Assembly (NCBI GenBank): GCA_027038835.1
Contig: JALWGC010000011.1
Location: forward strand, 12,837 to 76,836
Reading direction: 5' to 3'
Source of the DNA: Helicobacteraceae bacterium
Lineage (GTDB): Bacteria; Campylobacterota; Campylobacteria; Campylobacterales; Sulfurimonadaceae
DNA: 64,000 nt
The translations under genes and the position numbers were made by a program. The notes under the pieces are model-generated. The model saw only the letters and a program-made list of their open reading frames with translations, was not told the DNA's origin and did not search any database. Numbering within the stretch: position 1 is the stretch's first letter; every line of letters starts with the position of its first letter. Shown piece by piece: positions 4,138-59,191 of the stretch.

Positions 4138-4143
4138 AATGAA

Positions 4144-4220
<77 letters not shown>

Positions 4221-4247
4221 GATATTTTAGAACGTTAATTGATGGAA

Positions 4248-4322
4248 GTGGATGGGGTAGAGGGACTCGAACCCCCGAATGACTGGACCAAAACCAGTTG
4301 CCTTACCACTTGGCGATACCCC
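4248..4322 (-). tRNA. tRNA-Gln (anticodon UUG), second identical copy
   Basis: Sequence identical to the copy at 4063-4137. Confidence 0.9.
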
Positions 4323-4335
4323 AATAAAGAGCATT

Positions 4336-4412
<77 letters not shown>

Positions 4413-4548
4413 GATATATTGCGCATTTGCAAGTGTTTTCTTGCGTCCATCAATTAATGGAGTGGAATTATAGAAAATTTTTCTTTAAATGTCAAGAGCT
4501 TGAGGGGAAGAATTGTAAAAATATTGGTATAATACCATCAAAAGAAAT

Positions 4549-8326: not shown

Positions 8327-10146
8327 GAACCATTTTTAAAATAGCCGGTTTTACGAACTACCTCATAGTCGTTTTTCTCAACGCTTTTACCGACTTGGGA
8401 CATAAAATAATCATCCAAAATACCGTTTTCAAAGTTTACGACGGACCGCAGCAGATAGTATATACCGCAATCGTGAATGCGCTGATACTGCTTCCTTTCG
8501 TTTTGGTTTTCTCCCCTTCGGGTTTTTTGGCCGATCGTTTCAAAAAAAACCTTATCATGCGAGACGCCGCGCTTTTAGCGGTAGGGATAACGCTTTGTAT
8601 AACCCTTTTTTATTATCTTGGGTGGTTTTATGCGGCGTTTTTTATGACTTTTTTGCTGGCGTTGCAAAGTGCCATCTATTCTCCGGCGAAGTACGGTTAC
8701 ATCAAAGAGCTTGTCGGAGATGAATTTTTAAGTGCCGCAAACGGCGCGGTACAAGCCGTAACTACCGTTTCTATATTGAGCGGTATCATTTTCTACACGG
8801 TACTTTTCGAGTGGCTTTTGCATGACGACTTCATCACCCAAGCGGACGTGTTGCGCCACATCGCTCCTCTTGGATGGCTTTTGGTGTTAGGCTCGCTTGT
8901 AGAGTGGTATCTGGCATCCAAGCTTCCCGATAAACAAATCGAAGCGACGAAACGGCGTTTCGTTTTCGACAAATATATAAAAGGGTACTATCTTTTTAAA
9001 AACCTCAAACTGCTCCGGCGAAAAAAAGAGATATGGGAAAACATTTTGGCTTTGAGCCTTTTTTGGTCGATTTCACAAGTGGTTTTGGCGATTTTTGGAG
9101 AATACGCCAAAACGAATATGCACATTACAAACGCCGTTTATGTTCAAGGGGTGATGGCTCTTGCCGGGTTTGGTATAGTTGCGGGGTCGATTTTGGCTGC
9201 ACGATTGTCGAAGTACTACATCAACGCCGGTATCGCCGTTATGGGTTCGTTAGGAATCGCTTTGGTGGTGTTTGGTATTGTGTTTGTAGGCAATCTCGGT
9301 GTTATAGCGGTGATGTTTTCGCTCTTTGGGGTTTTTAGCGGTTTCATACTCGTCCCGCTCAATGCCAATATTCAGCATCTTAGCCCAAATGTGCATCTTG
9401 GAACTATCCTTGCCGGTAACAACTTCATACAAAATATTTTCATGGTAGCGTTTTTGGTTTTAACGACCGTGTTCGCATATTTCGGTATGGACTCGACGAC
9501 ACTTTTTTTTCTCATGGGAGCGGTCGCGCTCGTTTTGACGCTTATGCTGCTCAAGCGCTATTTCGTACAAACCGTTTGGAGCTTGTTCGAGCTTTTGGCT
9601 GCTCTTCGCTACAAAGTTACCTACGAGGGTTTGCACCACATCCCAAGCGATAAAGCGGTACTGCTTTTGGGTAATCATGTGAGTTGGCTCGATTGGCTGT
9701 TTTTACAACTGCCCCTGCAACGGCGTATCAACTATTTGATAGACAAAGAGATTTACCATAAAGCGCTTTTTCACCCGGTTTTGAAAAAAGGGGAGACGAT
9801 TCCCCTCTCTCGATGGGGTTTCAAAGACGCTATGTCCGAAGCGGTAAAACGGCTGCATAAAGGAAACATCGTAGCGATTTTTCCAGAAGGGGGCATAGAG
9901 AGAAATTGTAAAATAGACCCGTTTCATAGAGGATTCGAACTGATAGAAGAGGGGACATGGGAGGGCGTGCTCGTTCCGTTTTATATAAGCGGGATGGAAG
10001 GAAGCTTGTTTGCAAGGTGCAAACGGGGCAGGAAGTTTCCTTTGCCAAGACGGGAAGTCAAAGTTTGCTTCTTCCCTCCAAAACAAAAAGAGATAAAAGC
10101 CAAAGAGCTTGAAGAATATCTTCGCAAGGAGAGCAGAAAATGCTGA
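8323..10146 (+). CDS. MFS lysophospholipid-transporter-like domain fused to PlsC-type acyltransferase
   Basis: ATG at 8323 overlaps the upstream stop (ATGA). About 12 TM segments are followed by the acyltransferase HX4D motif (NHVSWLDW) and a FPEGG block. Confidence 0.75.
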   Translation: MRTIFKIAGFTNYLIVVFLNAFTDLGHKIIIQNTVFKVYDGPQQIVYTAIVNALILLPFVLVFSPSGFLADRFKKNLIMRDAALLAVGITLCITLFYYLGWFYAAFFMTFLLALQSAIYSPAKYGYIKELVGDEFLSAANGAVQAVTTVSILSGIIFYTVLFEWLLHDDFITQADVLRHIAPLGWLLVLGSLVEWYLASKLPDKQIEATKRRFVFDKYIKGYYLFKNLKLLRRKKEIWENILALSLFWSISQVVLAIFGEYAKTNMHITNAVYVQGVMALAGFGIVAGSILAARLSKYYINAGIAVMGSLGIALVVFGIVFVGNLGVIAVMFSLFGVFSGFILVPLNANIQHLSPNVHLGTILAGNNFIQNIFMVAFLVLTTVFAYFGMDSTTLFFLMGAVALVLTLMLLKRYFVQTVWSLFELLAALRYKVTYEGLHHIPSDKAVLLLGNHVSWLDWLFLQLPLQRRINYLIDKEIYHKALFHPVLKKGETIPLSRWGFKDAMSEAVKRLHKGNIVAIFPEGGIERNCKIDPFHRGFELIEEGTWEGVLVPFYISGMEGSLFARCKRGRKFPLPRREVKVCFFPPKQKEIKAKELEEYLRKESRKC

Positions 10147-40884: not shown

Positions 40885-41448
40885 ATGGCAAGACATACTT
40901 TAAGATTTACGGGTGTTGGTGGTCAAGGTGTTCTTCTTGCAGGTGAAATTATGGCTGCTTGTAAGATCAAAATGGGTGGATACGGTCTTAAAACCGCTAC
41001 ATATACTTCTCAAGTGCGTGGCGGACCGACTGTGGTTGATATCACTCTCGATGATGATGAAATCCGCTACCCTTATGCGAATGAGGGTGAAATCGATTTT
41101 ATGCTCTCAGTCGCGGATGTTTCGTACCAGTCTTTTAAAAACGGTGTGAAACCGGGCGGTATCATCGTCGTTGACCCGAACTTGGCATATCCGACAGATG
41201 AAGATAGAGAAAAATGGAGAGTTTACGAGATTCCAATCATCACCATAGCGAAAGAAGAGGTTGGTAATGTTATTACTCAATCTGTCGTTGCGCTTGCGAT
41301 TGCAAATACAATGACGGGAGTTCTTCCACATGAAGAGCTTATAGAAACTATGCTTTCAAAAGTTCCACCAAAAGTTCATGAAGCGAATAAACTTGCATAT
41401 GAGCTTGGTAAAAAATATGCGGAAGAGGCGATGGCTAAAGGGAAATAA
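40885..41448 (+). CDS. oorC: 2-oxoglutarate:ferredoxin oxidoreductase gamma subunit
   Basis: GVGGQGVLLAGEI N-terminal motif of gamma subunits. Last gene of the set. Confidence 0.88.
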   Translation: MARHTLRFTGVGGQGVLLAGEIMAACKIKMGGYGLKTATYTSQVRGGPTVVDITLDDDEIRYPYANEGEIDFMLSVADVSYQSFKNGVKPGGIIVVDPNLAYPTDEDREKWRVYEIPIITIAKEEVGNVITQSVVALAIANTMTGVLPHEELIETMLSKVPPKVHEANKLAYELGKKYAEEAMAKGK

Positions 41449-41462
41449 TCTTTCCAGTAAGA

Positions 41463-41489
41463 AAGAGGGTGTTTTGCCCTCTTTTTTTT
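41463..41489 (+). terminator. rho-independent terminator after oorC
   Basis: AAGAGGG-TGTTTTG-CCCTCTT followed by a T-run of eight. Confidence 0.8.
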
Positions 41490-41648
41490 ATTGTGTTTAC
41501 TTCATATTATATAGTATTATTTGTAATATTGTATAATATTAAGAAATGAAGACAGGAAAGAAGCTTCTTTGTTATTCTTTTTTAGCGGTGAAAGTCAGTT
41601 TCGTTACGGAAAATTGATTTATATAAAACATCTTTGTCAACGCTGAAA

Positions 41649-42245
41649 CTACTGTACCTTGATACCTTCCCAAAAAAAATCGACATGTTTTTCCATTTGA
41701 GTCGAGAGATGGCTTGTACTTTCGCTGTCGATGCGAAGTAGGGTAATATGAAATCGAATGTAAAATAGTGAGCTTAAAAACTCGTATGCTACAAGCATCG
41801 GATCGTTAGAGCGGATCAACCCCTCTTGCATCATTATAAAAAACGCTTCGGAGAGAAGTTTGATGTTTTTATCGTGAAATTCTTGAATGAACTTTTTGCG
41901 TAACGCTTCGTTGGTAAAAAGTTCTATAAGTAATAATCTAAACATTTTTTCCGAATTTTTATCGAACGTGACAAGCTTGTAGGTTGTTGCAAACCTTGCC
42001 AAAAAAGGTTTTCCACGTTTTGCTTCTTCTTGAATTTTTTCTCTATCGAGCTCTACAGAAGTAGCGAAGATTTCATCTGCAATCGTTAAAAAAATTTCTT
42101 CTTTATTCTTGAAATGGTTATACAAAGCACTCTCTCTAATCCCAACTTTCGATGCTATTTTCCTTACACTCGTAGCTTTGTATCCAAGCTGTGAGAATAG
42201 GGTACTCGCTTCTTTGAGTATCTTCTCTTTTGTACTTAAAGACAT
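41649..42245 (-). CDS. TetR family transcriptional regulator
   Basis: N-terminal HTH (FSQLGYKATSVRKIASKVGIRESALYNHFKNKEEI) with an all-helical C-terminal domain. Confidence 0.85.
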   Translation of the reverse strand: MSLSTKEKILKEASTLFSQLGYKATSVRKIASKVGIRESALYNHFKNKEEIFLTIADEIFATSVELDREKIQEEAKRGKPFLARFATTYKLVTFDKNSEKMFRLLLIELFTNEALRKKFIQEFHDKNIKLLSEAFFIMMQEGLIRSNDPMLVAYEFLSSLFYIRFHITLLRIDSESTSHLSTQMEKHVDFFWEGIKVQ

Positions 42246-42335
42246 CGTTTTTCTCCTTGCATGTTGTAGCGAAACTGATTGTACTATATAAAATTCTATA
42301 TAGCGTAAATAGTGTCAAACACCCTATTTTAGGGT

Positions 42336-42447
42336 ATGAACATTTGTTAATATTGTATCGAAAATATATTAACAAGCGTTCATTTCAACAAATTGGAAAA
42401 TGAACGATTGTTCATATTTAGTTTTGACGGTATGAACAAATGTTCAC
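42336..42447. promoter_or_regulatory. array of four 16-bp palindromic sites (ATGAAC-N4-GTTCAT) phased every 32 bp
   Basis: Sites are ATGAACATTTGTTAAT (42336), ATTAACAAGCGTTCAT (42368), ATGAACGATTGTTCAT (42400) and ATGAACAAATGTTCAC (42432). Site starts are exactly 32 nt apart. The function as an operator is inferred. Confidence 0.5.
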
Positions 42448-42458
42448 ACCTTATTTTA

Positions 42459-42467
42459 TGATATAAT
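42459..42467 (+). promoter_or_regulatory. extended -10 promoter (TGATATAAT) for rnpB
   Basis: TGnTATAAT ends 9 nt before the first base of the RNase P RNA P1 stem. Confidence 0.6.
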
Positions 42468-42476
42468 TTCGTAATA

Positions 42477-42820
42477 ATTCGGGTGCAGCGGAGTGTTGCT
42501 TGTTGATTGCAACAAGAGGAAAGTCCGAGCTGCTCCAAGAGAGTGTTCCATCTAACGGATGGCTGGGGTAACCCAAGGGAAAGTGCAACAGAAACTAGAC
42601 TTCTACTTGCTTGTCATGTACAAGAAGTAGTAAAGGTGAAACGGTGGTGTAAGAGACCACCAGTCCTTGCAGCAATGCTTGGAGCTTGTAAACCCAACAC
42701 GGCAGCAAGAAGCGTATGGTAAAACTCTTGGATTGTAGCGCTTCGCTTGAGATGTATTGTGAAATACATATTAGATTAATAACCTCCAAGACAGAACTCG
42801 GCTTATAGCTGCACCCGAAT
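42477..42820 (+). ncRNA. rnpB: RNase P RNA (bacterial type A)
   Basis: Universal motif GAGGAAAGTCCG at 42516-42527, AAGTGCAACAGAAA, GGTGTAAGAGACCACC, and ACAGAACTCGGCTTA near the 3' end. P1 pairing ATTCGGGTGCAGC (42477-42489) with GCTGCACCCGAAT (42808-42820). Confidence 0.92.
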
Positions 42821-42946
42821 TTCGATGTCATATACGATAATATGAATATTAACCGGTGTTCATCCTGTTTTTTGACATAAAAATATTTTCAAGAGAATTT
42901 ACATTATGTTAACCAAAAACAATCTATCTCCCAGAAAGGATACATT

Positions 42947-43177
42947 TTGAATGAAAATCAAAAAGAACTCGATCTCAAGCAAAAGCTCATTCTCGACATA
43001 CAAAAACTACTAAATAGCTACGATGCGACTCATACGACGACTATCAACCCCTCTTTGCTCCAGTATATGGATGAAAAAGATTTGAAACAGATCATAGATG
43101 ATCTTTTGACACAAAAAGAGCAGCTTCTCGATCAAAATAAAGAATGGCTTTCTCAATTTAAAAAAGACTACAAATAA
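42947..43177 (+). CDS. small hypothetical protein (76 aa, helical/charged)
   Basis: TTG start lies 8 nt after AAGGA. No recognisable motif. Coding status is uncertain. Confidence 0.4.
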   Translation: MNENQKELDLKQKLILDIQKLLNSYDATHTTTINPSLLQYMDEKDLKQIIDDLLTQKEQLLDQNKEWLSQFKKDYK

Positions 43178-43292
43178 CCATTAACATAAATAAAAAATAA
43201 AAAATTTGTTAATAGTTTCAAAATGTTATTGTTCTATTAACGTTTTTTGTGTAAAATTTCGGTAACAAAAAAAATTACTTGAAAGGTTTACT

Positions 43293-43841
43293 ATGGAAAA
43301 CATAGATTTGGTTCAACTTACATCACAAACTAAAAAACTTACGGCGTTGATCGTTGAAGATGAAAAAGTTACAAACGAGCTTTTGAGCTCCACTTTTAAA
43401 AACTTCTTTGCAGAGGTTTACTCTACCCTCAATTCAGACGAAGCTTTGGAACTTTATAAGAAACACACTCCTGATGTCGTTTTTGTAGATATCGTTATGG
43501 AAGGGATGGACGGTATAGAGCTTACTCGCCGCATTAGAGAGATCAATCCTAAACAAATCGTTATCGTTATTTCCGGAAGCAACGATATGGGTAAAATCGC
43601 CGAGTCGATCGAAGTTGGAGTCAACAGTTTCATTCAAAAACCTATAGATACGAAAAAAATCATCGATTTGCTTGCAAGCATCGTTTCTATGATTAACAAA
43701 AAACGTAAACAACAAACAAAAACATTCTCAATCTCTTTGCCGCTCGATCTTTACGACCTTGTCAACGACAACGCAAAAGCGGAATCTATCTCTAAAAATG
43801 CGGTTATCATCCGCGCGCTTCGTAAATTTTACGACGCTTAA
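43293..43841 (+). CDS. orphan response regulator: receiver domain fused to a CopG/Arc-type ribbon-helix-helix
   Basis: Canonical REC residues (VEDE; phospho-acceptor in FVDIVMEGMDG; ISGS; FIQKP). The last ~45 aa (FSISLPLDLYDLVNDNAKAESISKNAVIIRALRKFY) fit a beta-strand/helix/helix RHH pattern. Confidence 0.75.
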   Translation: MENIDLVQLTSQTKKLTALIVEDEKVTNELLSSTFKNFFAEVYSTLNSDEALELYKKHTPDVVFVDIVMEGMDGIELTRRIREINPKQIVIVISGSNDMGKIAESIEVGVNSFIQKPIDTKKIIDLLASIVSMINKKRKQQTKTFSISLPLDLYDLVNDNAKAESISKNAVIIRALRKFYDA

Positions 43842-43847
43842 TTATTT

Positions 43848-43885
43848 AGACGGAAAAGTTAGAAAAAACTTTTCTGTCTTTTTTT
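43848..43885 (+). terminator. rho-independent terminator after the response regulator gene
   Basis: 13-bp stem AGACGGAAAAGTT / AACTTTTCTGTCT (one G-U pair), 6-nt loop, then TTTTTTT. Confidence 0.85.
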
Positions 43886-43960
43886 GTTTTTTAGCTTTTT
43901 TTAAGTGATATTTCTTTATAATTTCGCCACCTAACACAAAGCGACTTAGCTTCTTTAGAT

Positions 43961-44035
43961 GGCCCCTTCATCTAGCGGTTAGGATTCCAGGTTTTCATCC
44001 TGGCCACAGGGGTTCGAGTCCCCTAGGGGTCACCA
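43961..44035 (+). tRNA. tRNA-Glu (anticodon UUC), CCA encoded
   Basis: GGCCCCTTCATCTAGCGGTTAGGATTCCAGGTTTTCATCCTGGCCACAGGGGTTCGAGTCCCCTAGGGGTCACCA. Anticodon stem CCAGG/CCTGG, loop TTTTCAT. A TATAAT lies at 43917-43922 upstream. Confidence 0.9.
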
Positions 44036-50665: not shown

Positions 50666-51519
50666 TGAACCACGATTTAGACGCCATTTTCGAAGCGATC
50701 CAAAAAAGCGCGAAACGGATCAAAGAAGCCATAGACGTAAAAGATATAGGTTACTCCCAAAGTGCCAACAGTTCGGGAGAAACACAGCTTGAACTCGACA
50801 TCAAATGCGACATGATCATAGAAGAGGAGTTCAGCAAGGTCGATTTGGTTCATACCATAGCAAGCGAAGAAAAAGAACACGCCGATAAACTGCATGACAA
50901 TGGACGTTACTTCATAGCTTACGATCCGCTTGACGGCTCTTCGCTTATAGATGTAAATTTGAGCGTGGGGAGTATTTTTGGCATTTACGACGGTGACTTT
51001 GGAACCGACAAAATGGTTGCCGCGTGTTATGTGGTGTATGGACCTAGGGTAGAGATGGTTTTTGCTTATAATAAAGTCAAACTTTACCTACTTCAAGCCG
51101 ATGAATTCGAGTTCGTCAAGGAGATTCGCCTAAACGAAAAAGGGAAACTCATGGCTCCGGGAGGCACGCAACAGCACTGGCCGACTTATCACAAAGAGAT
51201 GATAGACGGCTTCTTCCAAGAAGGATACAGACTACGATACTCCGGAGGTATGGTGCCTGACTTGCATCAAATACTGCTAAAAGGTGGCGGTTTGTTCAGC
51301 TACCCTGCCACTACCGACAAACCAAATGGGAAATTACGACGCCTTTTTGAAGTGTTCCCTTTTGCGTTCGTTTACACGAAAGCCGGTGGAATGGCCATAG
51401 ACGGTAAACAAGAGTTGCTAACCCTTGGTTATAACGGCGTACATGACACCAGTCCGTGTTTTTTCGGTTCGCGATACGAAGTAGAACGTGTCAAAGAGGT
51501 GTATAGTCAAAATGGCTGA
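50662..51519 (+). CDS. fbp: class 1 fructose-1,6-bisphosphatase
   Basis: ATG 50662 overlaps the mobB stop (ATGA). Motifs [11 protein letters not shown] and YSGGMVPD. Confidence 0.9.
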
Positions 51520-51718
51520 ACAAGCACAAAAAGAGCTCGATGAATTCGAGCTCCATTTGGAAAAAATGCTTAACAAATTAAGAGAATGTCAAAACGAAAA
51601 AGGGTTTGAAACCTGCTCCGCTTGTGAAGTTTTTTTGGAGTGTGAACTTAGAAAACAGTACGTCGATGCGGTGTACAACTCGATGAGCAAGGGAGATACC
51701 GGGGGATTCGAGTTTTAA
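51512..51718 (+). CDS. small Cys-containing conserved hypothetical (68 aa)
   Basis: ATG 51512 overlaps the fbp stop by 8 nt. CxxC-like spacing ([10 protein letters not shown]). Occupies the position of the small ORF between fbp and metS in C. jejuni, as far as I recall. Confidence 0.5.
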
Positions 51719-51812
51719 CGGTTGAGTTGAGAAATATTTGAGCCGCAGGGTCAAATATAACTCTGCAATGATTTCAAGGAAACATCCCTACGGGAGTGCT
51801 TCGCTTGTTTTG

Positions 51813-52097
51813 TTAGATGTAACCCCACTTTTTAAATTTATCTTTTAATTTGATATCATTTTCAAATGCTCTGTAATATAAATACTCTGGAGCTAAATCT
51901 AATTCATCATTCCATTTTATAGTGTAATCAACTGTAAAATTTTTAAATTTTTCTATGTCTTGAAGTTGTCTGAACGGTTTTAATTTTCCATCTAAAATAA
52001 AATCTTTTAAATCGACAACTCCCTTTTTATGGTCATTAAATTCTATTACAATTTTATAATCATCTTGATATTCTGCATCTACTACACTCAACATCAT
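51813..52097 (-). CDS. DUF2442 domain protein
   Basis: 94 aa. N-terminus (VVDAEYQDDYKIVIEFNDHKKGVVDL) and DLAPEYLY near the C-terminus fit the DUF2442 pattern. Confidence 0.7.
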   Translation of the reverse strand: MMLSVVDAEYQDDYKIVIEFNDHKKGVVDLKDFILDGKLKPFRQLQDIEKFKNFTVDYTIKWNDELDLAPEYLYYRAFENDIKLKDKFKKWGYI

Positions 52098-52114
52098 TTA
52101 ATCCTTTAACTAAA

Positions 52115-52357
52115 CTAAAGGTTCAATTTTTTTATATTCTCCTGTTTCTTTCTTTGTAGCAATTCTTCTTGATGATCTTCTGCCCATTCTACAACTAAAC
52201 CCAAGACTTTTGAAGGTAATCTTCCTTCTATTACTCCAAAAGTTTTAATATCAATTGAAGCTCTATAATCATTATATTCGACATGAAAATGTGGAGGATT
52301 ATGTTCATTAAAATACATAAATATTTTAATACCTAAAAATCTACTAATTTCTGGCAT
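52115..52357 (-). CDS. DUF4160 domain protein
   Basis: 80 aa. MPEISRFLGIKIFMYFNEHNPPHFHVEY is the characteristic DUF4160 N-terminus. Lies 17 nt upstream of the DUF2442 gene. Confidence 0.75.
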   Translation of the reverse strand: MPEISRFLGIKIFMYFNEHNPPHFHVEYNDYRASIDIKTFGVIEGRLPSKVLGLVVEWAEDHQEELLQRKKQENIKKLNL

Positions 52358-52482
52358 TCATTTCCTTGTAAAATTATTCTTACTGATTGTAGCAAAATTA
52401 CTTTTAAAATATCATCTAACGATCGACTTCACCGACAGGTTTACCTGTTCTGTGCAAGGATTTGTTATGTAATAGTTGCAAA

Positions 52483-55400
52483 TTACCCATCTTCTAATAT
52501 CTCAAATATCTGGTCTATATATTCCATTTGATTGTAATCTATTTTTTCACGTAAGTATTTAGGTATACACATTCTAAATTCTTCTAATGTTAATGGTTTG
52601 TTATTTACTAAAAGTTCAATCATTCTATCACTTAAAATTGATCTTGAATTTATCGCATATTTTTTGGAAACTATCTCTTCTCTAAATTTCAGTAATCTTT
52701 GAGTTAGAGTATCTTTATCACTAACTATACTATTTTCTCTATTATTAATATTAATTGCAGAGTTCTTGTTTGACAACCTATCGTTGGTATCCACACCTCT
52801 ATTTTCCAATATTGCTTCTTCTTTCTTAGGCTCATCCATTTCCTCTTTTATAAGCACAGCACGATTTTTAGCCTCTGCTAAAACTTTTTGTAGCCTTAAT
52901 TCTTCTTCTTTACGATGTTTAAACCAATCGGTACTCCATATTCTATGTATATGCCAACCCATACTTTCCAAAATTTCTTGGCGTATTCTGTCTCTATCTC
53001 TTGCAGATTTACTGGAATGATACCCTGCACCATCACATTCTATACCAATTATATAATTGTATGATCCCTCCACCATAACACCAATATCAATAAAGAATCC
53101 GGCTACACCAACTTGAGGATGGGCTATAAACCCCAAGGATTGTATAAACCTAATTACAGATTCTTCAAATGGGCTATCTGGTTCTTTTCCTGTTGTAGTG
53201 CCCTGTATAGATTCTACATGACCACTCTCTATATATTTGAGATAATTTCGGAGTGCCATACGTCCTCTGTTGCCTTCTGCAGGAATAATATCATTACTGA
53301 CCATTGAAGTAAACACAACAATTTTTTTTCTTGCTCTGGTAATTAAAACATTCATACGTCTCCAACCGTGATCACCATTAATCGGTCCAAAACGCTGATA
53401 TACTTTTTTACTTTCCGGATCAGGTCCATAAGTTGTACCAATATATAAAATATCCGCTTCATCACCCTGAACATTTTCAAGATTCTTGATGAAAAACTTT
53501 CCTTTATTAATAGCTAAATCGAGCAAACGTCTGATATTTATATCTTCTTTTGTTTTTTCTTCCAATAATCTATCAATTAGCTCTGCTTGCTTTTTATTCA
53601 TTGCAACAGCACCAAGACTATCTACGGGATTAGATTTTAAATGTTCACAAATAGCATCAACAATAGCAATGGCTTCATTAGTATTTTTTTGTTCCTTGAA
53701 GAATCCATTAGAAATAAATTTTCTGCTTATCCCTACTTGTGAAGTATCTCGTTCAGGTGATGGAAAAATCATTAACTCACTATCGTAAAAATGATGATTT
53801 GAAAATGCAATTAGACTTTCATGTCGTGATCTATAGTGCCATTTCAATCTTTTAACATGTGGGTAGACACGAAGCATCAAATCTAAAATTGATTCTGCTG
53901 ATGTTACAACTGTTTCATCCTGTATATCATCCTCTTTCATGCTAGAAGAAAAAAAGTTAGTAGGAGGTAACTGGTTTGGGTCCCCTACTACAACAACTTG
54001 TTTCGCACGGGCTATGGCACCCAGTGAATCTTCTGGAAAAATTTGACTGGCTTCATCCATAATCATTAGATCAAAAGGTTCCTGCATAGGATCAATAAAC
54101 TGTGATACACTAAGAGGAGACATCATATAGCACGGCTTTAGAGCCCTGATAGCTTTTGAAGCTCTTTTTAATGTTTGCCGTATAGGTAAATGGCGTTTTT
54201 GTTTACGTATCTCATTTTGAATAAGCCTCATTTCTGTTTTTTCACTCACTCTACCATTTGTACCTGCAGGTACTATATTTTTAGATAATTCAAAAGCATG
54301 TTTTTTTGCATACAAACTACCAAGTTTGTTATCTAGCTCTCTAAAAATTTTTAAAGAGGTTTCATATAGATGTCTGTTAAATTGTGCAAGAACTACATTA
54401 TCTCTCAAAATTTTATGCGCCCATTCTCTGTAGTAAGCATAAAGAACAATATCTTTCAATTTATCAGCAAGATCATGTTGTACTATATATCTTAAAATTT
54501 CAGACAGCCCATAATCATTTAAAGTAGACAGTAATCTAGAAACATCTATCCAAGCTCCCAACTCAGCAGTATTTGTAATTTTTTCCTCTAAAATTGCATA
54601 TCTCGTATTAAATTCTTTTGCATTATTAAAGAAAATATTTTCATTTATATTGACATACTGACTAATAGTGTTTTTCAAGGTTAAAAGTTCTTCCAAGATT
54701 GGTTTAGCTTTTAGTAATACTCTTACAAGAGCATCAACATAGTTCTGTTGGTCTTCTGTTTCAAATGGTTTGAGTAACTCTTCGCTGAATCCATAATCAA
54801 TCATTCTTTGTTTCCACTGGTAGGCAGAGTTGAGTTCTATAACTAAATCCAAATATTCACGTGTCTTACCTAGTGCTTTAATATTATTAAGGTCAATAGT
54901 ATCAAGACCTATTTCCTTCATTAAATATTCGCCACCATCCTTATAATAGTTTTTAAATTCTTGTAAATATTTTTCGATATGATGTCTATAATTATCCAGA
55001 ACGTTACTCATTTGTTCAGCATTTTTAGCTTTTTCTTTTATATTGATCAAGTTAAATTGTTTTTTGGCATTCTTATATTCTTTATTAAATAATTTTCCCC
55101 AGAAACTTATATCTTTGAATCCTCTCAATACCCTTGATAGTTGACGAATATTATCAATGCTCTCAACCATTTCCATATCTATTTCATCAAAAAAGCTACT
55201 CCTTTCTATCAATTCTTCCGTCTTGTGCATCAAGTTTTTAATTTTATCGATAGAAAAAGAATTAACTATTCTTAATTTTTCTGGGTCTGGATATTCGGAA
55301 AAAGCCTCACTATTATTGGCCTTGTCTATGATTTTAATCATTTCTTCTGTTTGAGGTACTACTCTGAGCAAGTTATCTTCTTCAAACAATGCGCTCATAT

Positions 55401-57027
55401 TCTGAAGTTTGTCTCTATACTCTTGCAAAAGTTCAATAATAACTCCAGTATCTAGGGAAATTGCATTTGTAGTTTCCAATCCATTCCATCTGGAATTTAA
55501 TATTCCTTGATTTTCTTTTATTAACAGTTCTAATGCACCTAGTTCGTTTTTAAGATCTTGGAGCATTTTTTGATCAATATTTAAAAATTTGTTTTCAGAA
55601 GGTACATTTAAAAAAGCTTCTTGCTCTCTATTTAATACTTCACCAAAAATAATATATGGAGTTTGTCCAATGATTTCTTGTGGTGTATGCAACACATTCA
55701 AATAATCGTTAATCCTTTGTTTAATGTGTTCAATATTTTCTATAGACTGTTCTAATTCATCTGAAGACAAAGAAACCTCTAAATCAACTCTTTCTCTAAG
55801 TGATGTATAAAAATTTGCTTTATTTGCTTTATGTGAATGTAGCTCCAAAATAAAATTACCCAGTCCTACTGCATCCAAACGCTTTTTTACAACTTCGAGA
55901 GCTACAAGTTTTTCAGCAACAAATAAAACACTTTTTCCCTCCGATAAAGCTACAGCAATAAGATTCGCAATGGTTTGACTTTTACCGGTTCCCGGGGGTC
56001 CTTCAATAATCAAATTATGCCCCCGCATTACCTGTGCAATCGCATCACGTTGAGATCCATCCGCATCCATGACCAAGCCCAAGTTTTCTGTCTCATCTTC
56101 AGGAATTTCTTCAAAAACCATAGATTGTTCTGGGGAGTCTATTTCTCCTGCTATTTCGGCTAAAATAGGATGTTCTTCTATTTTTCTATCTTCTGGCCAA
56201 TTTGAAGATTCTAAATCAAGATACATCAAAAGTTTATTAAATTGAAAAAAGTCTAATGCAAACCTACGGCTTACCCCAATAAGGTTTTTATTGTTCTCGC
56301 AAATATGATTTATTTTTTTGAAATATTCTTCAGGCGTATCTTCTTCGTTAAAGTCTGGCAACTTTATACCAAACTCATGATTTATTTTATGACGCAACGA
56401 AATATTAGAAACAAGATCTTCCCCAGTATATACAAGATTATAAGTATATACCCCAGTAACTTTATCTGGTTTACCACGTTCAATCTGTACCGGTATGAGT
56501 ATTAACGGAGAATTCAATATTTTTTCAGAATTTATAGACTGCTTCCACTGTAAAAATCCAATAGCAAGATAAAGAATATTTGTACCTTTTTCTTGTATTG
56601 CCGAGTTTGCATCGGATCTTCGTTTTCTCAACATTTGTTCAAGGGCATCTGGGTAATGTAATGTCTGAATAGCATTATCAGTATGTTTATCTAACAAAAT
56701 TCCTGAATCATTTTCTACAAATGGTACTTCTTCGTCAATTGATATACCAAGTATTTGGGCATGCTTTTTAGCAGATATAAAACCACTAACTTCATCCATT
56801 TCTTCATTTTGAATATTCTCTTCAGATTCATCAATTTCAGGATATGGCACAGGTTCAAATTTCATTATTTCAGCGTCTAATAACTTTTTATACATAACAT
56901 TAGGCAATTCATCTACAATGATTAACCTATTTTTACGTTTCAAGTTATAATTAATAAGAGGATTTCGCAAAGACAAATCCAACAATTTTTTTCTAGATTC
57001 ATCTAATAGCTTTTTTACTTCAGACAT
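52483..57027 (-). CDS. 1514-aa DUF4011-like / Upf1-like SF1 helicase fused to a DUF559 (Vsr-like, PD-(D/E)xK) nuclease and a DUF3320-like tail
   Basis: N-terminus LLDLSLRNPLINY...ILYLAIGFLQW (DUF4011-like). Walker A GPPGTGKS (aa 343-350, nt 55978-56001). Walker B/motif II MDEASQ (aa 990-995). Motif III GDPNQLPP, QGDEAD, and VLITRARKKIVVF. Nuclease block FFIDIG...IGIECDGAGYH...RDRIRQEILESMGWHIHRIW (aa ~1285-1370, nt 52918-53175). Confidence 0.8.
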   Translation of the reverse strand: MSEVKKLLDESRKKLLDLSLRNPLINYNLKRKNRLIIVDELPNVMYKKLLDAEIMKFEPVPYPEIDESEENIQNEEMDEVSGFISAKKHAQILGISIDEEVPFVENDSGILLDKHTDNAIQTLHYPDALEQMLRKRRSDANSAIQEKGTNILYLAIGFLQWKQSINSEKILNSPLILIPVQIERGKPDKVTGVYTYNLVYTGEDLVSNISLRHKINHEFGIKLPDFNEEDTPEEYFKKINHICENNKNLIGVSRRFALDFFQFNKLLMYLDLESSNWPEDRKIEEHPILAEIAGEIDSPEQSMVFEEIPEDETENLGLVMDADGSQRDAIAQVMRGHNLIIEGPPGTGKSQTIANLIAVALSEGKSVLFVAEKLVALEVVKKRLDAVGLGNFILELHSHKANKANFYTSLRERVDLEVSLSSDELEQSIENIEHIKQRINDYLNVLHTPQEIIGQTPYIIFGEVLNREQEAFLNVPSENKFLNIDQKMLQDLKNELGALELLIKENQGILNSRWNGLETTNAISLDTGVIIELLQEYRDKLQNMSALFEEDNLLRVVPQTEEMIKIIDKANNSEAFSEYPDPEKLRIVNSFSIDKIKNLMHKTEELIERSSFFDEIDMEMVESIDNIRQLSRVLRGFKDISFWGKLFNKEYKNAKKQFNLINIKEKAKNAEQMSNVLDNYRHHIEKYLQEFKNYYKDGGEYLMKEIGLDTIDLNNIKALGKTREYLDLVIELNSAYQWKQRMIDYGFSEELLKPFETEDQQNYVDALVRVLLKAKPILEELLTLKNTISQYVNINENIFFNNAKEFNTRYAILEEKITNTAELGAWIDVSRLLSTLNDYGLSEILRYIVQHDLADKLKDIVLYAYYREWAHKILRDNVVLAQFNRHLYETSLKIFRELDNKLGSLYAKKHAFELSKNIVPAGTNGRVSEKTEMRLIQNEIRKQKRHLPIRQTLKRASKAIRALKPCYMMSPLSVSQFIDPMQEPFDLMIMDEASQIFPEDSLGAIARAKQVVVVGDPNQLPPTNFFSSSMKEDDIQDETVVTSAESILDLMLRVYPHVKRLKWHYRSRHESLIAFSNHHFYDSELMIFPSPERDTSQVGISRKFISNGFFKEQKNTNEAIAIVDAICEHLKSNPVDSLGAVAMNKKQAELIDRLLEEKTKEDINIRRLLDLAINKGKFFIKNLENVQGDEADILYIGTTYGPDPESKKVYQRFGPINGDHGWRRMNVLITRARKKIVVFTSMVSNDIIPAEGNRGRMALRNYLKYIESGHVESIQGTTTGKEPDSPFEESVIRFIQSLGFIAHPQVGVAGFFIDIGVMVEGSYNYIIGIECDGAGYHSSKSARDRDRIRQEILESMGWHIHRIWSTDWFKHRKEEELRLQKVLAEAKNRAVLIKEEMDEPKKEEAILENRGVDTNDRLSNKNSAININNRENSIVSDKDTLTQRLLKFREEIVSKKYAINSRSILSDRMIELLVNNKPLTLEEFRMCIPKYLREKIDYNQMEYIDQIFEILEDG

Positions 57028-57250
57028 ATCTTCCCTTAACTACTCAGTTTGACTAGCTTTTATCTTTACATAACTATTTATTAACTCACATTTTACGTAT
57101 TTTTGTCCGAAAAGTCAATATTAACACTACATATTTTTATATGTTAATCGTTTATAATTCTTAAAGAATCTATAATTGACAATCTTTTTAACTATAACGA
57201 AACTAAAAGGATAGTTTAGATAGAATTTCTAAAAATTCTTCAAACGGGGA

Positions 57251-59191
57251 TTGAAATTGAGCAAATACATCACGACTCCTATCTACTATGTCAACGGTGA
57301 AGCGCACATTGGGCATGCCTACACCACTTTTATAGCCGATACCATAGCGCGGTACGAGCGGCTAAAGGGTGAAGAGACGTTTTTCTTGACAGGAACGGAC
57401 GAGCATGGGCAAAAGATCGAAGAGTCCGCGAAAAAAGCGGGTAAACCTACACAAGAGTTCGCCGATGAAATAAGCGCTACATTCAAAAATCTTTGGGACG
57501 AGTTCGGCATCAGTTACGACAAGTTCATCCGCACGACGGACGAAGCGCATAAGCAAGGGGTACAAAAAGCGTTTTTGAAGATGTTTGAAAAAGGTGACAT
57601 CTACAAAGGTGAGTATGAAGGGCATTACTGTGTGAGTTGCGAAGCGTTCTTTCCGGAAACCCAGTTGGTTGACGGTGAGTTTTGTCCCGACTGCGGCAGA
57701 AGCACGACCGTAGTACAAGAAGAGAGTTACTTTTTCAAACTTTCGAATTACGAGCAAAAACTACTGGAGTATTACGAAACGCATCCCGATTTCATCTTAC
57801 CGAAATCACGTGCCAACGAAGTTATAAATTTCGTCAAAGGAGGACTTAGAGACCTCTCGGTCACTCGAACCTCTTTTAGCTGGGGTGTGCCGCTTCCAAA
57901 AGAGATAAACGACCCAAAACATGTCATGTATGTATGGCTCGATGCGTTGCTCAACTATGTAACGGCACTTGGCTACGGACAAGATGACGAAAGCTTGATG
58001 GAGAAGTTCTGGCCTGCGGACATCCACCTCGTTGGAAAAGATATTTTACGTTTTCATGCCATCTACTGGCCGGCATTTTTGATGAGTTTGGAGCTTCCTT
58101 TACCCAAACATATAGCTGCTCATGGGTGGTGGACGAGAGACGGCGAAAAAATGAGTAAATCAAAAGGGAACGTGGTCAACCCTAAAGAGGTCGCCGATGC
58201 GTACGGAGTGGAAAATTTGCGCTATTTCATGCTTCGTGAAGTACCGTTTGGACAAGATGGCGACTTTTCACAACGTGCATTCATAGACCGCATCAACTCC
58301 GACCTTTCCAATGACCTTGGCAACTTGCTTAACCGCATCATCGGTATGAGCGGAAAATACAGCGACTTCGTCATAGATTCCAAAGATGTCACGACTTACC
58401 ATAAAGAACAGCTCGATGCACTAAACGCTGTCATCGATACGCTCGATAGTTTCATCCAAACCGTCCAGCCTCACCGCTATCTCGAAGAGTTATGGAAACT
58501 TTTTGCCATTGGAAACGGTACCATTCAAGAAGCCGAGCCGTGGGTGAAGATGAAAAACGGGCAAAAAGATGAAGCTTTAGCTACAGTCGCGCTTGTTGCG
58601 AATATTCTCGCCAAAGCCGCTCTGCTTCTCTCACCCGTTATGCCAAATACCGCGCGAAAAATCGCCGATGCACTTAGTATCTCCATCGACAGCCAAACGT
58701 TCGAGCGTCTTGTAGTGCAAAAGGGTCTGCTTGAGACGTTCACCATAGAGAAAATCCCGCCGCTTTTTCCAAAGATAGAAGAACCGCTTCTTCCTGAAGC
58801 GCCTCAAGCTCAGCCTAACACTCAAGCAAAAAGTGAGCAAAAAGAGCAACCAAAAGAGGAGGACAACCTCATAGAGATCGGTCAGTTTTTCGAAACTTCG
58901 CTCAAAGTGGGAACGGTCGTAGAAGCCCAAGAAGTACCAAAAAGTAAAAAACTCCTCAAACTGCAAGTCGATTTGGGTGAAGAAGAACCTCGCCAAATCG
59001 TCGCGGGTATCAAGGAGTTCTATTCACCGGAAAGTTTGCTCAACACCCAAGTATGTGTCGTTGCCAACCTCAAACCTGCGAAACTCATGGGAATAGTCTC
59101 ACAAGGGATGCTCCTTGCCGCTAAAGACGCAGACGGCCTTTGTCTGATACGTCCGGAAAAACCAAAACAAGCCGGAACGCCTATTGGATGA
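57251..59191 (+). CDS. metG: methionine--tRNA ligase with C-terminal tRNA-binding (Trbp111-like) domain
   Basis: HIGHAY, a CxxC..CxxC knuckle (CVSC..CPDC), KMSKS, and a C-terminal OB-fold (LKVGTVVEAQEVPKSKKLLKLQVDLG). TTG start. Confidence 0.95.
   Translation: MKLSKYITTPIYYVNGEAHIGHAYTTFIADTIARYERLKGEETFFLTGTDEHGQKIEESAKKAGKPTQEFADEISATFKNLWDEFGISYDKFIRTTDEAHKQGVQKAFLKMFEKGDIYKGEYEGHYCVSCEAFFPETQLVDGEFCPDCGRSTTVVQEESYFFKLSNYEQKLLEYYETHPDFILPKSRANEVINFVKGGLRDLSVTRTSFSWGVPLPKEINDPKHVMYVWLDALLNYVTALGYGQDDESLMEKFWPADIHLVGKDILRFHAIYWPAFLMSLELPLPKHIAAHGWWTRDGEKMSKSKGNVVNPKEVADAYGVENLRYFMLREVPFGQDGDFSQRAFIDRINSDLSNDLGNLLNRIIGMSGKYSDFVIDSKDVTTYHKEQLDALNAVIDTLDSFIQTVQPHRYLEELWKLFAIGNGTIQEAEPWVKMKNGQKDEALATVALVANILAKAALLLSPVMPNTARKIADALSISIDSQTFERLVVQKGLLETFTIEKIPPLFPKIEEPLLPEAPQAQPNTQAKSEQKEQPKEEDNLIEIGQFFETSLKVGTVVEAQEVPKSKKLLKLQVDLGEEEPRQIVAGIKEFYSPESLLNTQVCVVANLKPAKLMGIVSQGMLLAAKDADGLCLIRPEKPKQAGTPIG

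What the first reader, a model, noticed from the sequence alone, without database searches (positions are those of the whole stretch)
51719..57250. Abruptly AT-rich three-gene insert in the conserved fbp...metG backbone: giant helicase-nuclease plus DUF4160/DUF2442 pair (best candidate for a defence-type or undescribed system)
**Composition.** Hand counts of single 60-nt lines give low G+C inside the segment:
- 51901-51960: 12/60
- 52501-52560: 15/60
- 55201-55260: 18/60
- 56401-56460: 18/60
- 54001-54060, a line across helicase motifs: 28/60

Flanking lines are much richer: 30/60 in fbp (51001-51060) and 33/60 in metG (57301-57360). The switch is sharp on both sides, after the stop at 51718 and before the metG start at 57251.

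**Orientation and synteny.** All three genes lie on the minus strand, opposite to the flanking plus-strand core genes. From memory, C. jejuni NCTC 11168 keeps the same backbone order: gltX-yggT-slt-lipoprotein-mobB-fbp-small ORF-metS (Cj0845c..Cj0838c). It has nothing inserted before metS, which would make this a lineage-specific acquisition.

**Mobility and content.** No integrase, transposase, tRNA target or convincing direct repeat is visible, so the route of acquisition is unclear. The cargo is a 1514-aa helicase-nuclease followed co-directionally by a DUF4160/DUF2442 pair. That is what one expects of an anti-phage or anti-plasmid islet. To my knowledge this three-gene combination is not a named system.
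Basis: partly seen in the sequence, partly recalled or inferred. Interest (0 to 1): 0.8.

Follow-up and report, generated by a model that had tools for sequence, protein, structure and literature searches.

The report
Hhe-like defence gene plus toxin-antitoxin pair
The AT-rich insert before metG is real and foreign, but it is two familiar, independent modules side by side (a single-gene Hhe-type helicase-nuclease predicted to block phages, and a DhiTA-type toxin-antitoxin pair), not a new three-gene system.

Summary
**Observation: confirmed.** Window 51719-57250 has 31.5% G+C against about 43% elsewhere (z = -6.7). Third-position G+C is 0.16-0.22 against 0.45-0.52 in host genes. It carries three intact minus-strand genes.

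**Host and site.** The host is an uncultured Sulfurimonas-like member of the Campylobacterota, not Campylobacter.
- Three related genomes (four contigs) have the small ORF directly followed by metG (16-74 bp).
- The nearest relative carries different cargo at the same spot (MazEF plus a small cytochrome c-like ORF).
- So this junction is a variable site.

**The 1514-aa protein** is a short-form relative of the validated single-gene defence Hhe.
- Order of parts: DUF4011, Upf1-like SF1 helicase split by an all-helical arm of about 500 aa, MTES_1575 nuclease.
- It matches PADLOC's untested candidate PDC-S37 over its full length.
- Its closest relatives lie in defence islands, often right after type I hsdR.

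**The DUF4160/DUF2442 pair** is a DhiTA-type toxin-antitoxin module with its own conserved promoter.

**Co-occurrence fails in both directions.**
- 0 of 96 helicase loci carry the pair.
- 0 of 80 loci with the pair carry the helicase.
- The 79% relative of the helicase is followed by Phd/ParE instead.

**Verdict:** a new member of known kinds, of modest interest.

The parts
51488..51718 (+). Host small conserved ORF after fbp, 76 aa as listed; the real start is probably the ATG giving about 68 aa, as in relatives. It is the left flank of the variable site.
   Evidence: Orthologues of 67-69 aa directly precede metG in L085-L088.
51719..51812 (-). Left junction: a two-hairpin, terminator-like element just downstream of the antitoxin stop. 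G+C is 0.436.
   Evidence: The minus strand folds at -27.8 kcal/mol, z = -4.5, with 0 of 200 shuffles as stable. It has no counterpart in the empty sites.
51813..52097 (-). DUF2442 protein (94 aa), DhiA-like antitoxin.
   Evidence: Pfam PF10387 at 51.8 bits (cut-off 23.9). NCBIfam DhiA at 30.8 bits, below the equivalog cut-off of 200. 70 of 80 loci with a relative of the toxin have a homologue directly downstream.
52115..52357 (-). DUF4160 protein (80 aa), DhiT-like toxin. The toxin comes first, with a 17-nt gap to the antitoxin.
   Evidence: Pfam PF13711 at 84.9 bits (cut-off 23). NCBIfam DhiT at 85 bits against a cut-off of 100. Relatives at 56-93% identity in 80 metagenome loci.
52386..52415 (-). 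The TA pair's own promoter: extended -10 'TTTTGCTACAAT' (52386-52397), 28 nt upstream of the toxin ATG.
   Evidence: 'TTTTGnTAyAAT' is conserved in the window and in 8 of 8 close TA loci, whose upstream sequence is otherwise unrelated. The promoter scan also finds it.
52483..57027 (-). 1514-aa DUF4011 / SF1 (Upf1-like) helicase / MTES_1575 nuclease. A short-form Hhe-like protein of the PADLOC PDC-S37 type.
56386..56988 (-). DUF4011 N-terminal domain (aa 14-214).
   Evidence: Pfam at 122.6 bits. AF2 model of aa 1-320: pLDDT 84.8, pTM 0.80. No PDB fold match at E <= 0.001.
55978..56001 (-). Walker A motif GPPGTGKS (aa 343-350).
   Evidence: Invariant in 22 subfamily members.
54268..55740 (-). 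All-helical, coiled-coil-like arm (about aa 430-920) inserted between Walker A and motif II. This is the part that is roughly 265 aa shorter than in canonical Hhe.
   Evidence: AF2 model of aa 400-930: pLDDT 88.7, almost entirely helical. Only weak MukB/Rad50/SMC-type matches. Alignment to Hhe P0103.
53308..54255 (-). Helicase motifs II-VI: DEASQ 991-995, GDPNQLPP 1015-1022, QGDEAD 1187-1192, VLITRA 1227-1232.
   Evidence: Pfam AAA_11/AAA_12. Invariant columns. Matches to Sen1, DNA2 and IGHMBP2 in PDB sequences.
52885..53169 (-). MTES_1575 (Vsr/DUF559-like) nuclease domain (aa 1287-1381) with invariant D1314, E1330, D1332 and H1337.
   Evidence: Pfam PF18741 at 113 bits. Invariant columns.
57028..57190 (-). 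AT-rich leader of the large gene (the 57028-57250 intergenic has G+C 0.25) with a promoter-like site, TTGACT-17-TAAAAT, at 57118->57090. It runs to the right end of the insert.
   Evidence: It has no homology to the upstream regions of relatives.
57191..57250 (+). Host metG promoter/leader, conserved with the relative L083.

Best explanation
The interval is a small patch of foreign DNA. It sits in a variable spot between the fbp/small-ORF operon and metG of a Sulfurimonas-like bacterium. It holds two independent modules that are each of a known kind.

**Module 1: the 1514-aa gene, a single-gene defence of the Hhe type (PADLOC candidate family PDC-S37).**
- Shown: the protein is collinear with Hhe, all helicase and nuclease motifs are intact, it has no conserved partner gene, and its relatives live in defence islands.
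- Inferred from Hhe and from Upf1-like helicases:
  1. The protein patrols or is loaded on nucleic acid.
  2. The SF1B motor translocates using ATP.
  3. The DUF4011 domain and the long helical arm sense or gate.
  4. When phage DNA replication or recombination intermediates appear, the C-terminal Vsr-like nuclease cuts DNA. This stops the phage, possibly at the cost of the cell.

**Module 2: the DUF4160/DUF2442 pair, a DhiTA-type type II toxin-antitoxin cassette.**
- Shown: it is transcribed from its own conserved extended -10 promoter.
- Inferred: the antitoxin binds and neutralises the toxin and the complex represses the promoter.
- Its role here is most likely selfish or stabilising (it resists loss of the patch), or it is a separate abortive-infection device.

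**Origin.** The patch probably came from low-G+C Campylobacterota (Arcobacter-like). Entry was probably by recombination in the flanking core genes, because no recombinase or repeat is present.
For: **Foreign origin and variable site**
- G+C and GC3 contrast.
- The site is empty in L085, L086/L087 and L088, and holds MazEF plus a cytochrome c-like ORF in L083/L084.

**Module 1**
- Pfam architecture.
- PDC-S37 at 1188 bits over aa 1-1465; Hhe at 924 bits.
- NCBIfam Hhe at 1333 bits.
- 41% identity and collinearity with annotated Hhe at both ends.
- Invariant catalytic motifs across 22 subfamily members.
- Upf1/Sen1/DNA2/IGHMBP2-type helicase core.
- Five of the eight relatives' places examined lie right next to type I hsdR or beside other defence genes (Hachiman, Abi_2, SNF2+PLD, caspase-SLFN); a sixth is followed by GIY-YIG and, about 4 kb on, an integrase.
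- No recurrent downstream partner in about 88 loci.
- Hhe is a validated single-gene helicase+nuclease defence. Its triggers map to phage DNA-metabolism genes, and expressing a trigger is toxic (bioRxiv 10.1101/2024.10.10.617714). It is classed SF1_Upf1 (PMC10925250).
- PDCs are candidates predicted from embedding in type I RM, BREX or DISARM (bioRxiv 10.1101/2024.01.29.577857).

**Module 2**
- Pfam and NCBIfam hits.
- dhiTA was shown to be a toxin-first type II TA with autoregulation (PMC8198452).
- A DUF4160/DUF2442 pair raises plasmid persistence in Thermus (PMC12724237).
- DUF4160 is read as an effector domain (PMC12065111).
- 70 of 80 related loci keep the pair and 0 of 80 have the helicase.
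- The promoter is conserved, and homology ends about 50 nt upstream and about 15 nt downstream of the pair.

**Donors**
- Relatives of both modules lie on contigs of 25-36% G+C.
Against: - No phenotype is available for this protein, and the PDC-S37 family itself is untested.
- The protein fails NCBI's equivalog cut-offs for Hhe (1333 < 2000) and ProA (1059 < 1500). It lacks about 265 aa of Hhe's middle region, so transferring function from Hhe is an inference.
- The mechanism of Hhe is itself unsolved. One screen hinted at NAD+/adenine involvement.
- In this genome the gene is not in a defence island but between housekeeping genes.
- No clear terminator follows the large gene, so read-through into the TA pair cannot be excluded.
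- Three of about 89 helicase loci (counting this one) have some TA pair immediately downstream. This could hint at a loose functional link.
- The route of insertion is not shown.
Confidence: 0.8

Rival explanations
1. The three genes form one integrated defence system. The helicase-nuclease would be the sensor, and the DUF4160/DUF2442 pair its effector/regulator or an obligatory partner.
For: - The genes are co-directional and adjacent, and no strong terminator follows the large gene.
- Two other helicase loci are also followed by a TA pair: Phd/ParE in L095 and TacA/GNAT in L050.
- DUF4160 occurs as an effector domain in Menshen NsnC proteins (PMC12065111).
Against: - 0 of 96 helicase loci have the pair and 0 of 80 pair loci have the helicase.
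- The pair has its own conserved promoter and sharp homology borders.
- The TA families found next to relatives differ from one another, which argues against a specific partnership.
- Hhe works as a single gene.
Confidence: 0.06
2. The large protein is not an immune protein. It would be a DNA repair or recombination helicase-nuclease, or a maintenance or anti-plasmid factor, that happens to travel with mobile DNA.
For: - The core resembles DNA2, Sen1 and IGHMBP2.
- A DUF4011 gene is a conserved core gene flanking a hotspot in P. aeruginosa (PMC10250203).
- PDC-S37 is untested.
- Here the gene sits among housekeeping genes.
Against: - It is absent from all five sampled relatives' copies of this locus (four genomes).
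- Its composition is foreign.
- Its relatives lie next to type I hsdR, Hachiman, Abi_2 and other defence genes.
- The homologous Hhe is a validated anti-phage gene.
Confidence: 0.1
3. The patch is the decayed remnant of a larger mobile element (island, prophage or ICE) that has lost its integrase and ends. It would not be a recombinase-free hotspot insertion.
For: - Relatives of the large gene sit near resolvase or integrase genes (L081, L092).
- The leader and spacer are long and AT-rich.
- The nearest relative has other cargo at the same spot.
Against: - There are no repeats, no tRNA and no pseudogene fragments.
- All three ORFs are intact and the junctions lie tight against host genes.
- The two modules have different closest relatives and contexts.
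Confidence: 0.12

Closest known systems
Hhe (HheA), the single-gene DUF4011 helicase-nuclease anti-phage defence (DefenseFinder/PADLOC 'Hhe'; NCBIfam NF042953)
   Same: - Same domain order: DUF4011, split Upf1-like SF1 helicase, MTES_1575/Vsr-like nuclease, conserved C-terminal tail.
- 41% identity over aa 4-541 and 775-1512.
- Single gene with no fixed partner.
- Found in defence islands and on plasmids.
   Different: - 1514 aa against about 1800-1900 aa.
- The helical middle region is about 235 aa against about 500 aa, and the N-terminal linker is shorter.
- It scores 1333 bits, below the 2000-bit equivalog cut-off.
- It has not been tested experimentally.
PADLOC PDC-S37, an untested 'phage defence candidate' predicted by guilt-by-embedding
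   Same: - Full-length HMM match: 1188 bits, aa 1-1465 against profile 1-1416 of 1550.
- Close relatives (54-68% identity) lie directly beside type I hsdR, which is the signal used to define PDCs.
   Different: - In this genome the gene is not embedded in or next to any R-M, BREX or DISARM system. It sits alone between housekeeping genes with a TA pair.
- I found no published description of PDC-S37 itself.
ProA (NCBIfam NF058533, 'anti-phage protein ProA')
   Same: Homologous over aa 7-1427 (1059 bits).
   Different: - Below the 1500-bit cut-off.
- The match starts at profile position 359 of 1903, so the protein lacks ProA's N-terminal ~350 residues.
- I could not find the ProA literature.
DhiTA type II toxin-antitoxin system of Dickeya dadantii (DUF4160 toxin / DUF2442 antitoxin)
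   Same: - Same two Pfam domains, with the toxin first and a very short gap.
- Own promoter.
- The pair is conserved as a unit in 70 of 80 related loci.
   Different: - Below the NCBIfam equivalog cut-offs: 85 < 100 for DhiT and 30.8 < 200 for DhiA.
- The antitoxin is 94 aa against a 160-position DhiA profile, so it lacks the extra part of DhiA.
- Toxicity has not been tested.
Core defence hotspots flanked by conserved genes (such as cDHS1 in P. aeruginosa)
   Same: The same junction between core genes holds different TA or defence cargo in related genomes, and is empty in others, with no associated mobile-element genes (PMC10250203).
   Different: - Only two occupied states and three empty genomes were sampled.
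- The cargo is small, and in the relative it includes a non-defence cytochrome c-like ORF.

Membership tests
Hhe | Collinear architecture: DUF4011, SF1 helicase (AAA_11/AAA_12), MTES_1575 nuclease, C-terminal tail | tested here: met
   Pfam hits. BLASTP to annotated Hhe P0103 is collinear at both ends with 41% identity.
Hhe | Intact ATPase and nuclease catalytic motifs | tested here: met
   GPPGTGKS, DEASQ, GDPNQLPP, QGDEAD, VLITRA, and D1314/E1330/D1332/H1337 are invariant in 22 sequences that include this one.
Hhe | Acts as a single gene, with no conserved partner gene | tested here: met
   No recurrent family among 110 downstream ORFs of about 88 loci. Neighbours differ in all close relatives.
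Hhe | NCBIfam NF042953 equivalog score of at least 2000 bits | tested here: not met
   1333 bits, in 2 stretches.
Hhe | Length of about 1800-1900 aa with a long middle region | tested here: not met
   The protein is 1514 aa. Its aa 541-775 correspond to aa 651-1151 of P0103. Hhe-named hits are 1700-1900 aa.
Hhe | Protection against phage | not testable with these tools
   Needs cloning and phage challenge.
PADLOC PDC-S37 | Full-length match to the PDLC05009 profile | tested here: met
   1188 bits, aa 1-1465 against profile 1-1416 of 1550, in one stretch. PADLOC's own coverage and E-value rules were not run.
PADLOC PDC-S37 | Embedded in or adjacent to type I R-M, BREX or DISARM | tested here: inconclusive
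   True for relatives L081, L082, L089 and L094, and probably L092. Not true in this window, where the neighbours are fbp/small ORF and metG.
ProA (NF058533) | Equivalog score of at least 1500 bits and coverage of the whole 1903-position profile | tested here: not met
   1059 bits, and the match starts at profile position 359.
DhiTA toxin-antitoxin | DUF4160 gene followed closely by a DUF2442 gene on the same strand, toxin first | tested here: met
   ORFs 52357->52115 and 52097->51813, 17 nt apart. Pfam scores are above gathering. The order matches dhiTA.
DhiTA toxin-antitoxin | NCBIfam equivalog cut-offs (DhiT 100 bits, DhiA 200 bits) | tested here: not met
   85 and 30.8 bits. It belongs at family level and is not an equivalog of the Dickeya proteins.
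DhiTA toxin-antitoxin | Autonomous bicistronic unit with its own promoter | tested here: met
   Conserved TTTTGnTAyAAT upstream of the toxin in 9 of 9 loci. The pair is kept together in 70 of 80 loci, with no helicase.
DhiTA toxin-antitoxin | Toxin inhibits growth, antitoxin neutralises it, and the complex autoregulates | not testable with these tools
   Shown only for the Dickeya pair (PMC8198452).
Classical genomic island / integrative element | Integrase or transposase, tRNA target, flanking direct repeats | tested here: not met
   No such ORFs. The nearest tRNA is about 7.7 kb away at 43961. No flanking repeats beyond chance.
Variable hotspot between core genes | Same flanks, with empty and differently occupied states in relatives | tested here: met
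   Empty in L085, L086, L087 and L088. MazEF plus a cytochrome c-like ORF in L083/L084.

The most novel reading that the evidence does not exclude
The fbp-small ORF | metG junction may be a recombinase-free defence/TA hotspot in Sulfurimonas-like bacteria. In this reading, interchangeable TA cassettes (DhiTA here, Phd/ParE in the 79% relative, TacAT in a distant one) are recruited right after Hhe-like genes. They would anchor the defence gene against loss, or act as a second abortive layer tied to it by read-through transcription. That would make the 'defence gene + swappable TA' cassette a functional unit rather than a chance neighbourhood.
Probability: 0.1. Interest if true: 0.5.

Novelty: new member of a known kind. 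Interest (0 to 1): 0.25.

Why it matters
- **Annotation.** The locus can now be annotated cleanly: an Hhe-like (PDC-S37-type) single-gene defence candidate plus a DhiTA-type TA pair.
- **Caution for other scans.** Adjacency in an AT-rich patch does not make a system.
- **A compact test case.** PDC-S37 is an untested candidate family. This copy is a natural, stand-alone example with its own leader, flanked only by housekeeping genes.
- **Comparison with Hhe.** The shorter helical arm relative to Hhe could show what that arm does.
- **A site to survey.** The variable fbp|metG junction is a small, easily PCR-able place to look at cargo turnover in vent Campylobacterota.

Tried and rejected
- **Genome-collection scan with a subfamily alignment.** It returned only distant relatives (27-48% identity), not the close Campylobacterota ones. 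It was still usable as a co-occurrence control.
- **phmmer with the two small proteins.** No hits in any helicase locus. Because a single-sequence search might be too weak, I backed it up with a Pfam scan of 110 downstream ORFs and with the reciprocal census.
- **Literature searches for ProA and PDC-S37 and for HheA/DUF4011/MTES_1575.** Nothing useful turned up. The source of the ProA name remains unknown to me.
- **Fold searches of the DUF4011 domain and of the helical arm against PDB.** No match at E <= 0.001. The weak hits (restriction enzymes BbvCI and EndoMS; MukB, Rad50, SMC and dynein coiled coils) are too poor to use.
- **PDB sequence searches for the toxin and antitoxin.** Only chance-level hits.
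- **Direct and inverted repeats, tandem repeats and Rfam in the insert.** Nothing beyond chance.
- **Flank homology between the window and relatives of the large gene.** None beyond the coding sequence, so the unit that moved cannot be delimited from these data.
- **Rejected: a Campylobacter jejuni-type host.**
- **Rejected: a third, hidden gene or RNA in the spacers.**


Full report
**1.

A sliding G+C profile falls from 0.42-0.47 to 0.26-0.38 between about 51800 and 57200, and returns to 0.44-0.47 inside metG. The 5532-nt interval has G+C 0.315. The 474 other windows of the same length in this 64-kb sequence have mean 0.433, sd 0.018 and minimum 0.387, which gives z = -6.7.

Third-codon-position G+C is 0.19, 0.16 and 0.22 for the three genes. 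For slt, mobB, fbp, the small ORF and metG it is 0.45-0.52.

There is no tRNA nearby, no integrase or transposase ORF, and no flanking direct repeat beyond chance. There is also no Rfam match and no tandem repeat in the interval.

**2. Host and insertion site.**

MetG of the window is identical to a protein on a 116.5-kb NCBI/ENA contig. It is 86-91% identical to proteins of uncultured 'Epsilonproteobacteria' and 81% identical to that of Sulfurimonas paralvinellae. The host is therefore a Sulfurimonas-like member of the Campylobacterota, not Campylobacter.

- In three related genomes (MetG 88%, 88% and 81% identical; loci L085, L086/L087 and L088) the small ORF of 67-69 aa is followed directly by metG. 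The gap is 16-74 bp.
- In the nearest relative (MetG 91%; L083/L084) the same spot carries a minus-strand MazE/PemK pair. It also carries a 122-aa ORF with several CxxCH motifs.

The junction is thus a variable site, and the segment in this window is a lineage-specific gain. About 60 nt upstream of metG (from 'ATAACGAAACTA...') are shared between the window and L083. They look like the metG promoter, so the right edge of the insert is near 57190. The left 94 nt (51719-51812, G+C 0.436) fold on the minus strand into two hairpins (z = -4.5, 0 of 200 shuffles as stable). This fits a terminator for the cassette.

**3. The large protein.**

Pfam finds these parts:
- DUF4011 (aa 14-214)
- AAA_19/AAA_30 around the Walker A motif (aa 324-385)
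- AAA_11/AAA_12 (aa 925-1240)
- the MTES_1575 restriction-endonuclease-like domain (aa 1287-1381)

Profile-library scores:

| Library and model | Score | Coverage or cut-off |
|---|---|---|
| PADLOC PDC-S37 | 1188 bits | aa 1-1465 against profile 1-1416 of 1550 |
| PADLOC Hhe | 924 bits | three stretches |
| NCBIfam Hhe | 1333 bits | cut-off 2000 |
| NCBIfam ProA | 1059 bits | cut-off 1500; starts at profile position 359 |

A pairwise alignment with a protein that NCBI names Hhe (P0103, 1897 aa) is collinear. Identity is 41% over aa 4-541 and again over aa 775-1512. The middle region differs: about 235 aa here stand against about 500 aa in Hhe.

In the protein database there is a small subfamily of about 25 full-length relatives of 1485-1541 aa at 47-79% identity, one of them from Poseidonibacter lekithochrous. 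After those come thousands of Hhe-type proteins of about 1800 aa at 40-45% identity over the ends. Across 22 subfamily members the following are invariant:
- Walker A (GPPGTGKS)
- motif II (DEASQ)
- GDPNQLPP, QGDEAD and VLITRA
- the nuclease residues D1314, E1330, D1332 and H1337

The helicase core matches Sen1, IGHMBP2, DNA2 and Upf1 among solved structures. This agrees with the published placement of Hhe in the SF1 Upf1-like group (PMC10925250).

AlphaFold models built on alignments are confident for aa 1-320 (pLDDT 84.8, pTM 0.80) and for aa 400-930 (pLDDT 88.7, almost entirely helical). Neither has a significant counterpart in the PDB. The helical arm draws only weak coiled-coil hits such as MukB and Rad50.

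So the protein is a short-arm member of the Hhe kind. It is already represented by PADLOC's candidate family PDC-S37, one of 145 untested candidates that were predicted because they lie embedded in type I R-M, BREX or DISARM loci (bioRxiv 10.1101/2024.01.29.577857).

**4. Context of relatives of the large gene.**

I examined eight places that carry close relatives.

| Locus | Neighbours |
|---|---|
| L081 (Poseidonibacter) | Directly after type I hsdR, with AAA_15/AAA_21 genes and a resolvase nearby |
| L082 | After hsdR, in a block with HamA plus a helicase (Hachiman) and Abi_2 |
| L089 | Beside hsdR |
| L092 | Directly after a large gene whose C-terminus reads like HsdR; followed by GIY-YIG and an integrase |
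| L093 | SNF2 plus PLD genes |
| L094 | hsdR, a caspase-SLFN gene, SNF2 plus PLD, and Phd/RelE |
| L095 (79% identical partial relative) | Followed at 55 nt by Phd/ParE with its own TATGCTACAAT promoter |
| L096 | Followed by an unrelated ORF |

These contigs have 26-35% G+C, like the insert. Hhe-type genes are also common on plasmids (497 records) and rare in phages.

**5. Do the three genes go together? No.**

- phmmer with the two small proteins finds nothing in 80 loci of distant relatives of the helicase, or in the 16 further loci fetched by then (L081-L096), eleven of which carry close relatives of the helicase.
- A Pfam scan of 110 small ORFs lying just downstream of the helicase gene in about 88 loci finds no DUF4160 and no DUF2442. 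It finds no recurrent family at all. Only two other TA pairs appear: Phd/ParE in L095 and TacA/GNAT in L050.
- In the other direction, 80 metagenome loci encode relatives of the DUF4160 protein at 56-93% identity. Seventy of them have a DUF2442 homologue immediately downstream, and none has a DUF4011 helicase within the sequence held.

The closest relatives of the pair sit in varied places:
- between ThiD2 and DprA (L098)
- in a cluster with MqsRA and Phd/ParE (L099)
- next to a GIY-YIG/DUF4357 gene (L102)

An alignment of the regions upstream of the toxin shows a conserved extended -10 promoter, TTTTGnTAyAAT. It lies about 20-35 nt before the ATG in the window (52386-52397) and in all eight close loci. 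Further upstream the sequences are unrelated. Homology also stops about 15 nt after the antitoxin stop.

The pair is therefore a self-contained two-gene unit that moves without the helicase.

**6. What the pair is.**

DUF4160/DUF2442 is the DhiTA toxin-antitoxin family.
- In Dickeya dadantii the toxin-first operon is co-transcribed. The toxin stops growth of Dickeya and E. coli, co-expression rescues growth, and the complex represses the promoter (PMC8198452).
- A DUF4160/DUF2442 pair improves plasmid persistence in Thermus (PMC12724237).
- A comparative study notes that most DUF4160 proteins are single-domain proteins followed by DUF2442 proteins. It treats DUF4160 as a toxin or effector domain of unknown fold (PMC12065111).

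The window's proteins pass the Pfam thresholds. They fall below NCBI's equivalog cut-offs for the Dickeya proteins, and the antitoxin is shorter than DhiA (94 aa against a 160-position profile). They are family members, not orthologues.

**7. How it most likely works.**

*Shown:*
- domain content
- intact motifs
- homology to Hhe
- the single-gene habit
- the defence-island habit of relatives
- the autonomy of the TA pair

*Inferred for the large protein:*
- It is an ATP-driven SF1B translocase.
- Its DUF4011 domain and long helical arm sense or gate.
- Its Vsr-like nuclease cuts DNA once phage replication or recombination activity appears.

For E. coli Hhe, a genome-wide phage knockout screen found that several T7 class II DNA-metabolism genes act as triggers. 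The authors concluded that Hhe probably responds to what these triggers do rather than to the proteins themselves. They also found that expressing a Bas63 gene is toxic only when hhe is present (bioRxiv 10.1101/2024.10.10.617714). That fits an activity-sensing, possibly abortive, mechanism, but the biochemistry is unknown.

*Inferred for the pair:* classic type II TA behaviour. Its role here would be to stabilise the patch or to act as a separate abortive device.

*Inferred for acquisition:* recombination through the flanking core genes after uptake of DNA from low-G+C Campylobacterota. No recombinase or repeat is present, and both modules have their nearest relatives on low-G+C contigs, some from samples of the same metagenome series as a relative of the host.

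**8. Verdict.**

It is a new member of known kinds. The points of modest interest are these:
- PDC-S37 has no experimental test.
- This copy has a much shorter helical arm than Hhe.
- The fbp|metG junction behaves as a small recombinase-free variable site.
- Different TA cassettes occasionally sit right behind Hhe-like genes.

Noticed in passing
L083:7945-8932 (also L084): In the nearest relative the same small-ORF|metG junction carries a minus-strand MazE/PemK pair. It also carries an unannotated 122-aa ORF (8564-8932) with a signal-peptide-like start and four or five CxxCH motifs, which looks like a small multihaem cytochrome c.
   Followed up: partly
L095:3418-4007: The closest sampled relative of the large gene outside its own 90%-identity cluster (79% identity) is followed, 55 nt after its stop, by a Phd/ParE pair. 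That pair has its own TATGCTACAAT promoter and a TGACAGGATTCTGTCA palindrome. It is a different TA family in the same slot as the DhiTA-like pair of the window.
   Followed up: partly
L050:11339-12287: In a Janthinobacterium lividum MAG, a distant DUF4011 helicase-nuclease is followed immediately by a TacA (DUF1778) / GNAT toxin pair.
   Followed up: no
L099:3961-7552: A cluster of three TA modules (MqsR/MqsA, Phd/ParE and DUF4160/DUF2442) lies on a 32-kb low-G+C metagenome contig. Its toxin is 90% identical to the one in the window.
   Followed up: no
window 4064-4413: A tandemly duplicated tRNA-Gln(ttg)/tRNA-Met(cat) pair: four tRNA genes in 350 nt on the minus strand.
   Followed up: no
window 41000-44000: This is the second lowest G+C stretch of the window (0.35-0.37). 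It holds a TetR-family gene (41649-42245, minus), RNase P RNA (42480-42821), a response-regulator gene (43293-43841) and tRNA-Glu. Some of the same gene types (POR, TetR, glutamyl-tRNA synthetase) recur upstream of the fbp cluster in relative L086, so it looks like ordinary host sequence.
   Followed up: partly
window 51488-51718 and orthologues in L083-L088: A small, conserved Cys-containing ORF (about 68 aa, '...[15 protein letters not shown].[26 protein letters not shown]') overlaps the end of fbp. It is kept before metG in all relatives and has no Pfam or NCBIfam match.
   Followed up: no
window 56068-57027 (aa 1-320) and 54238-55830 (aa 400-930): The DUF4011 domain and the ~500-aa helical arm both give confident AlphaFold models, yet neither has a significant match among solved structures. 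There is no structural precedent for either part of Hhe-type proteins in the PDB copy searched.
   Followed up: yes
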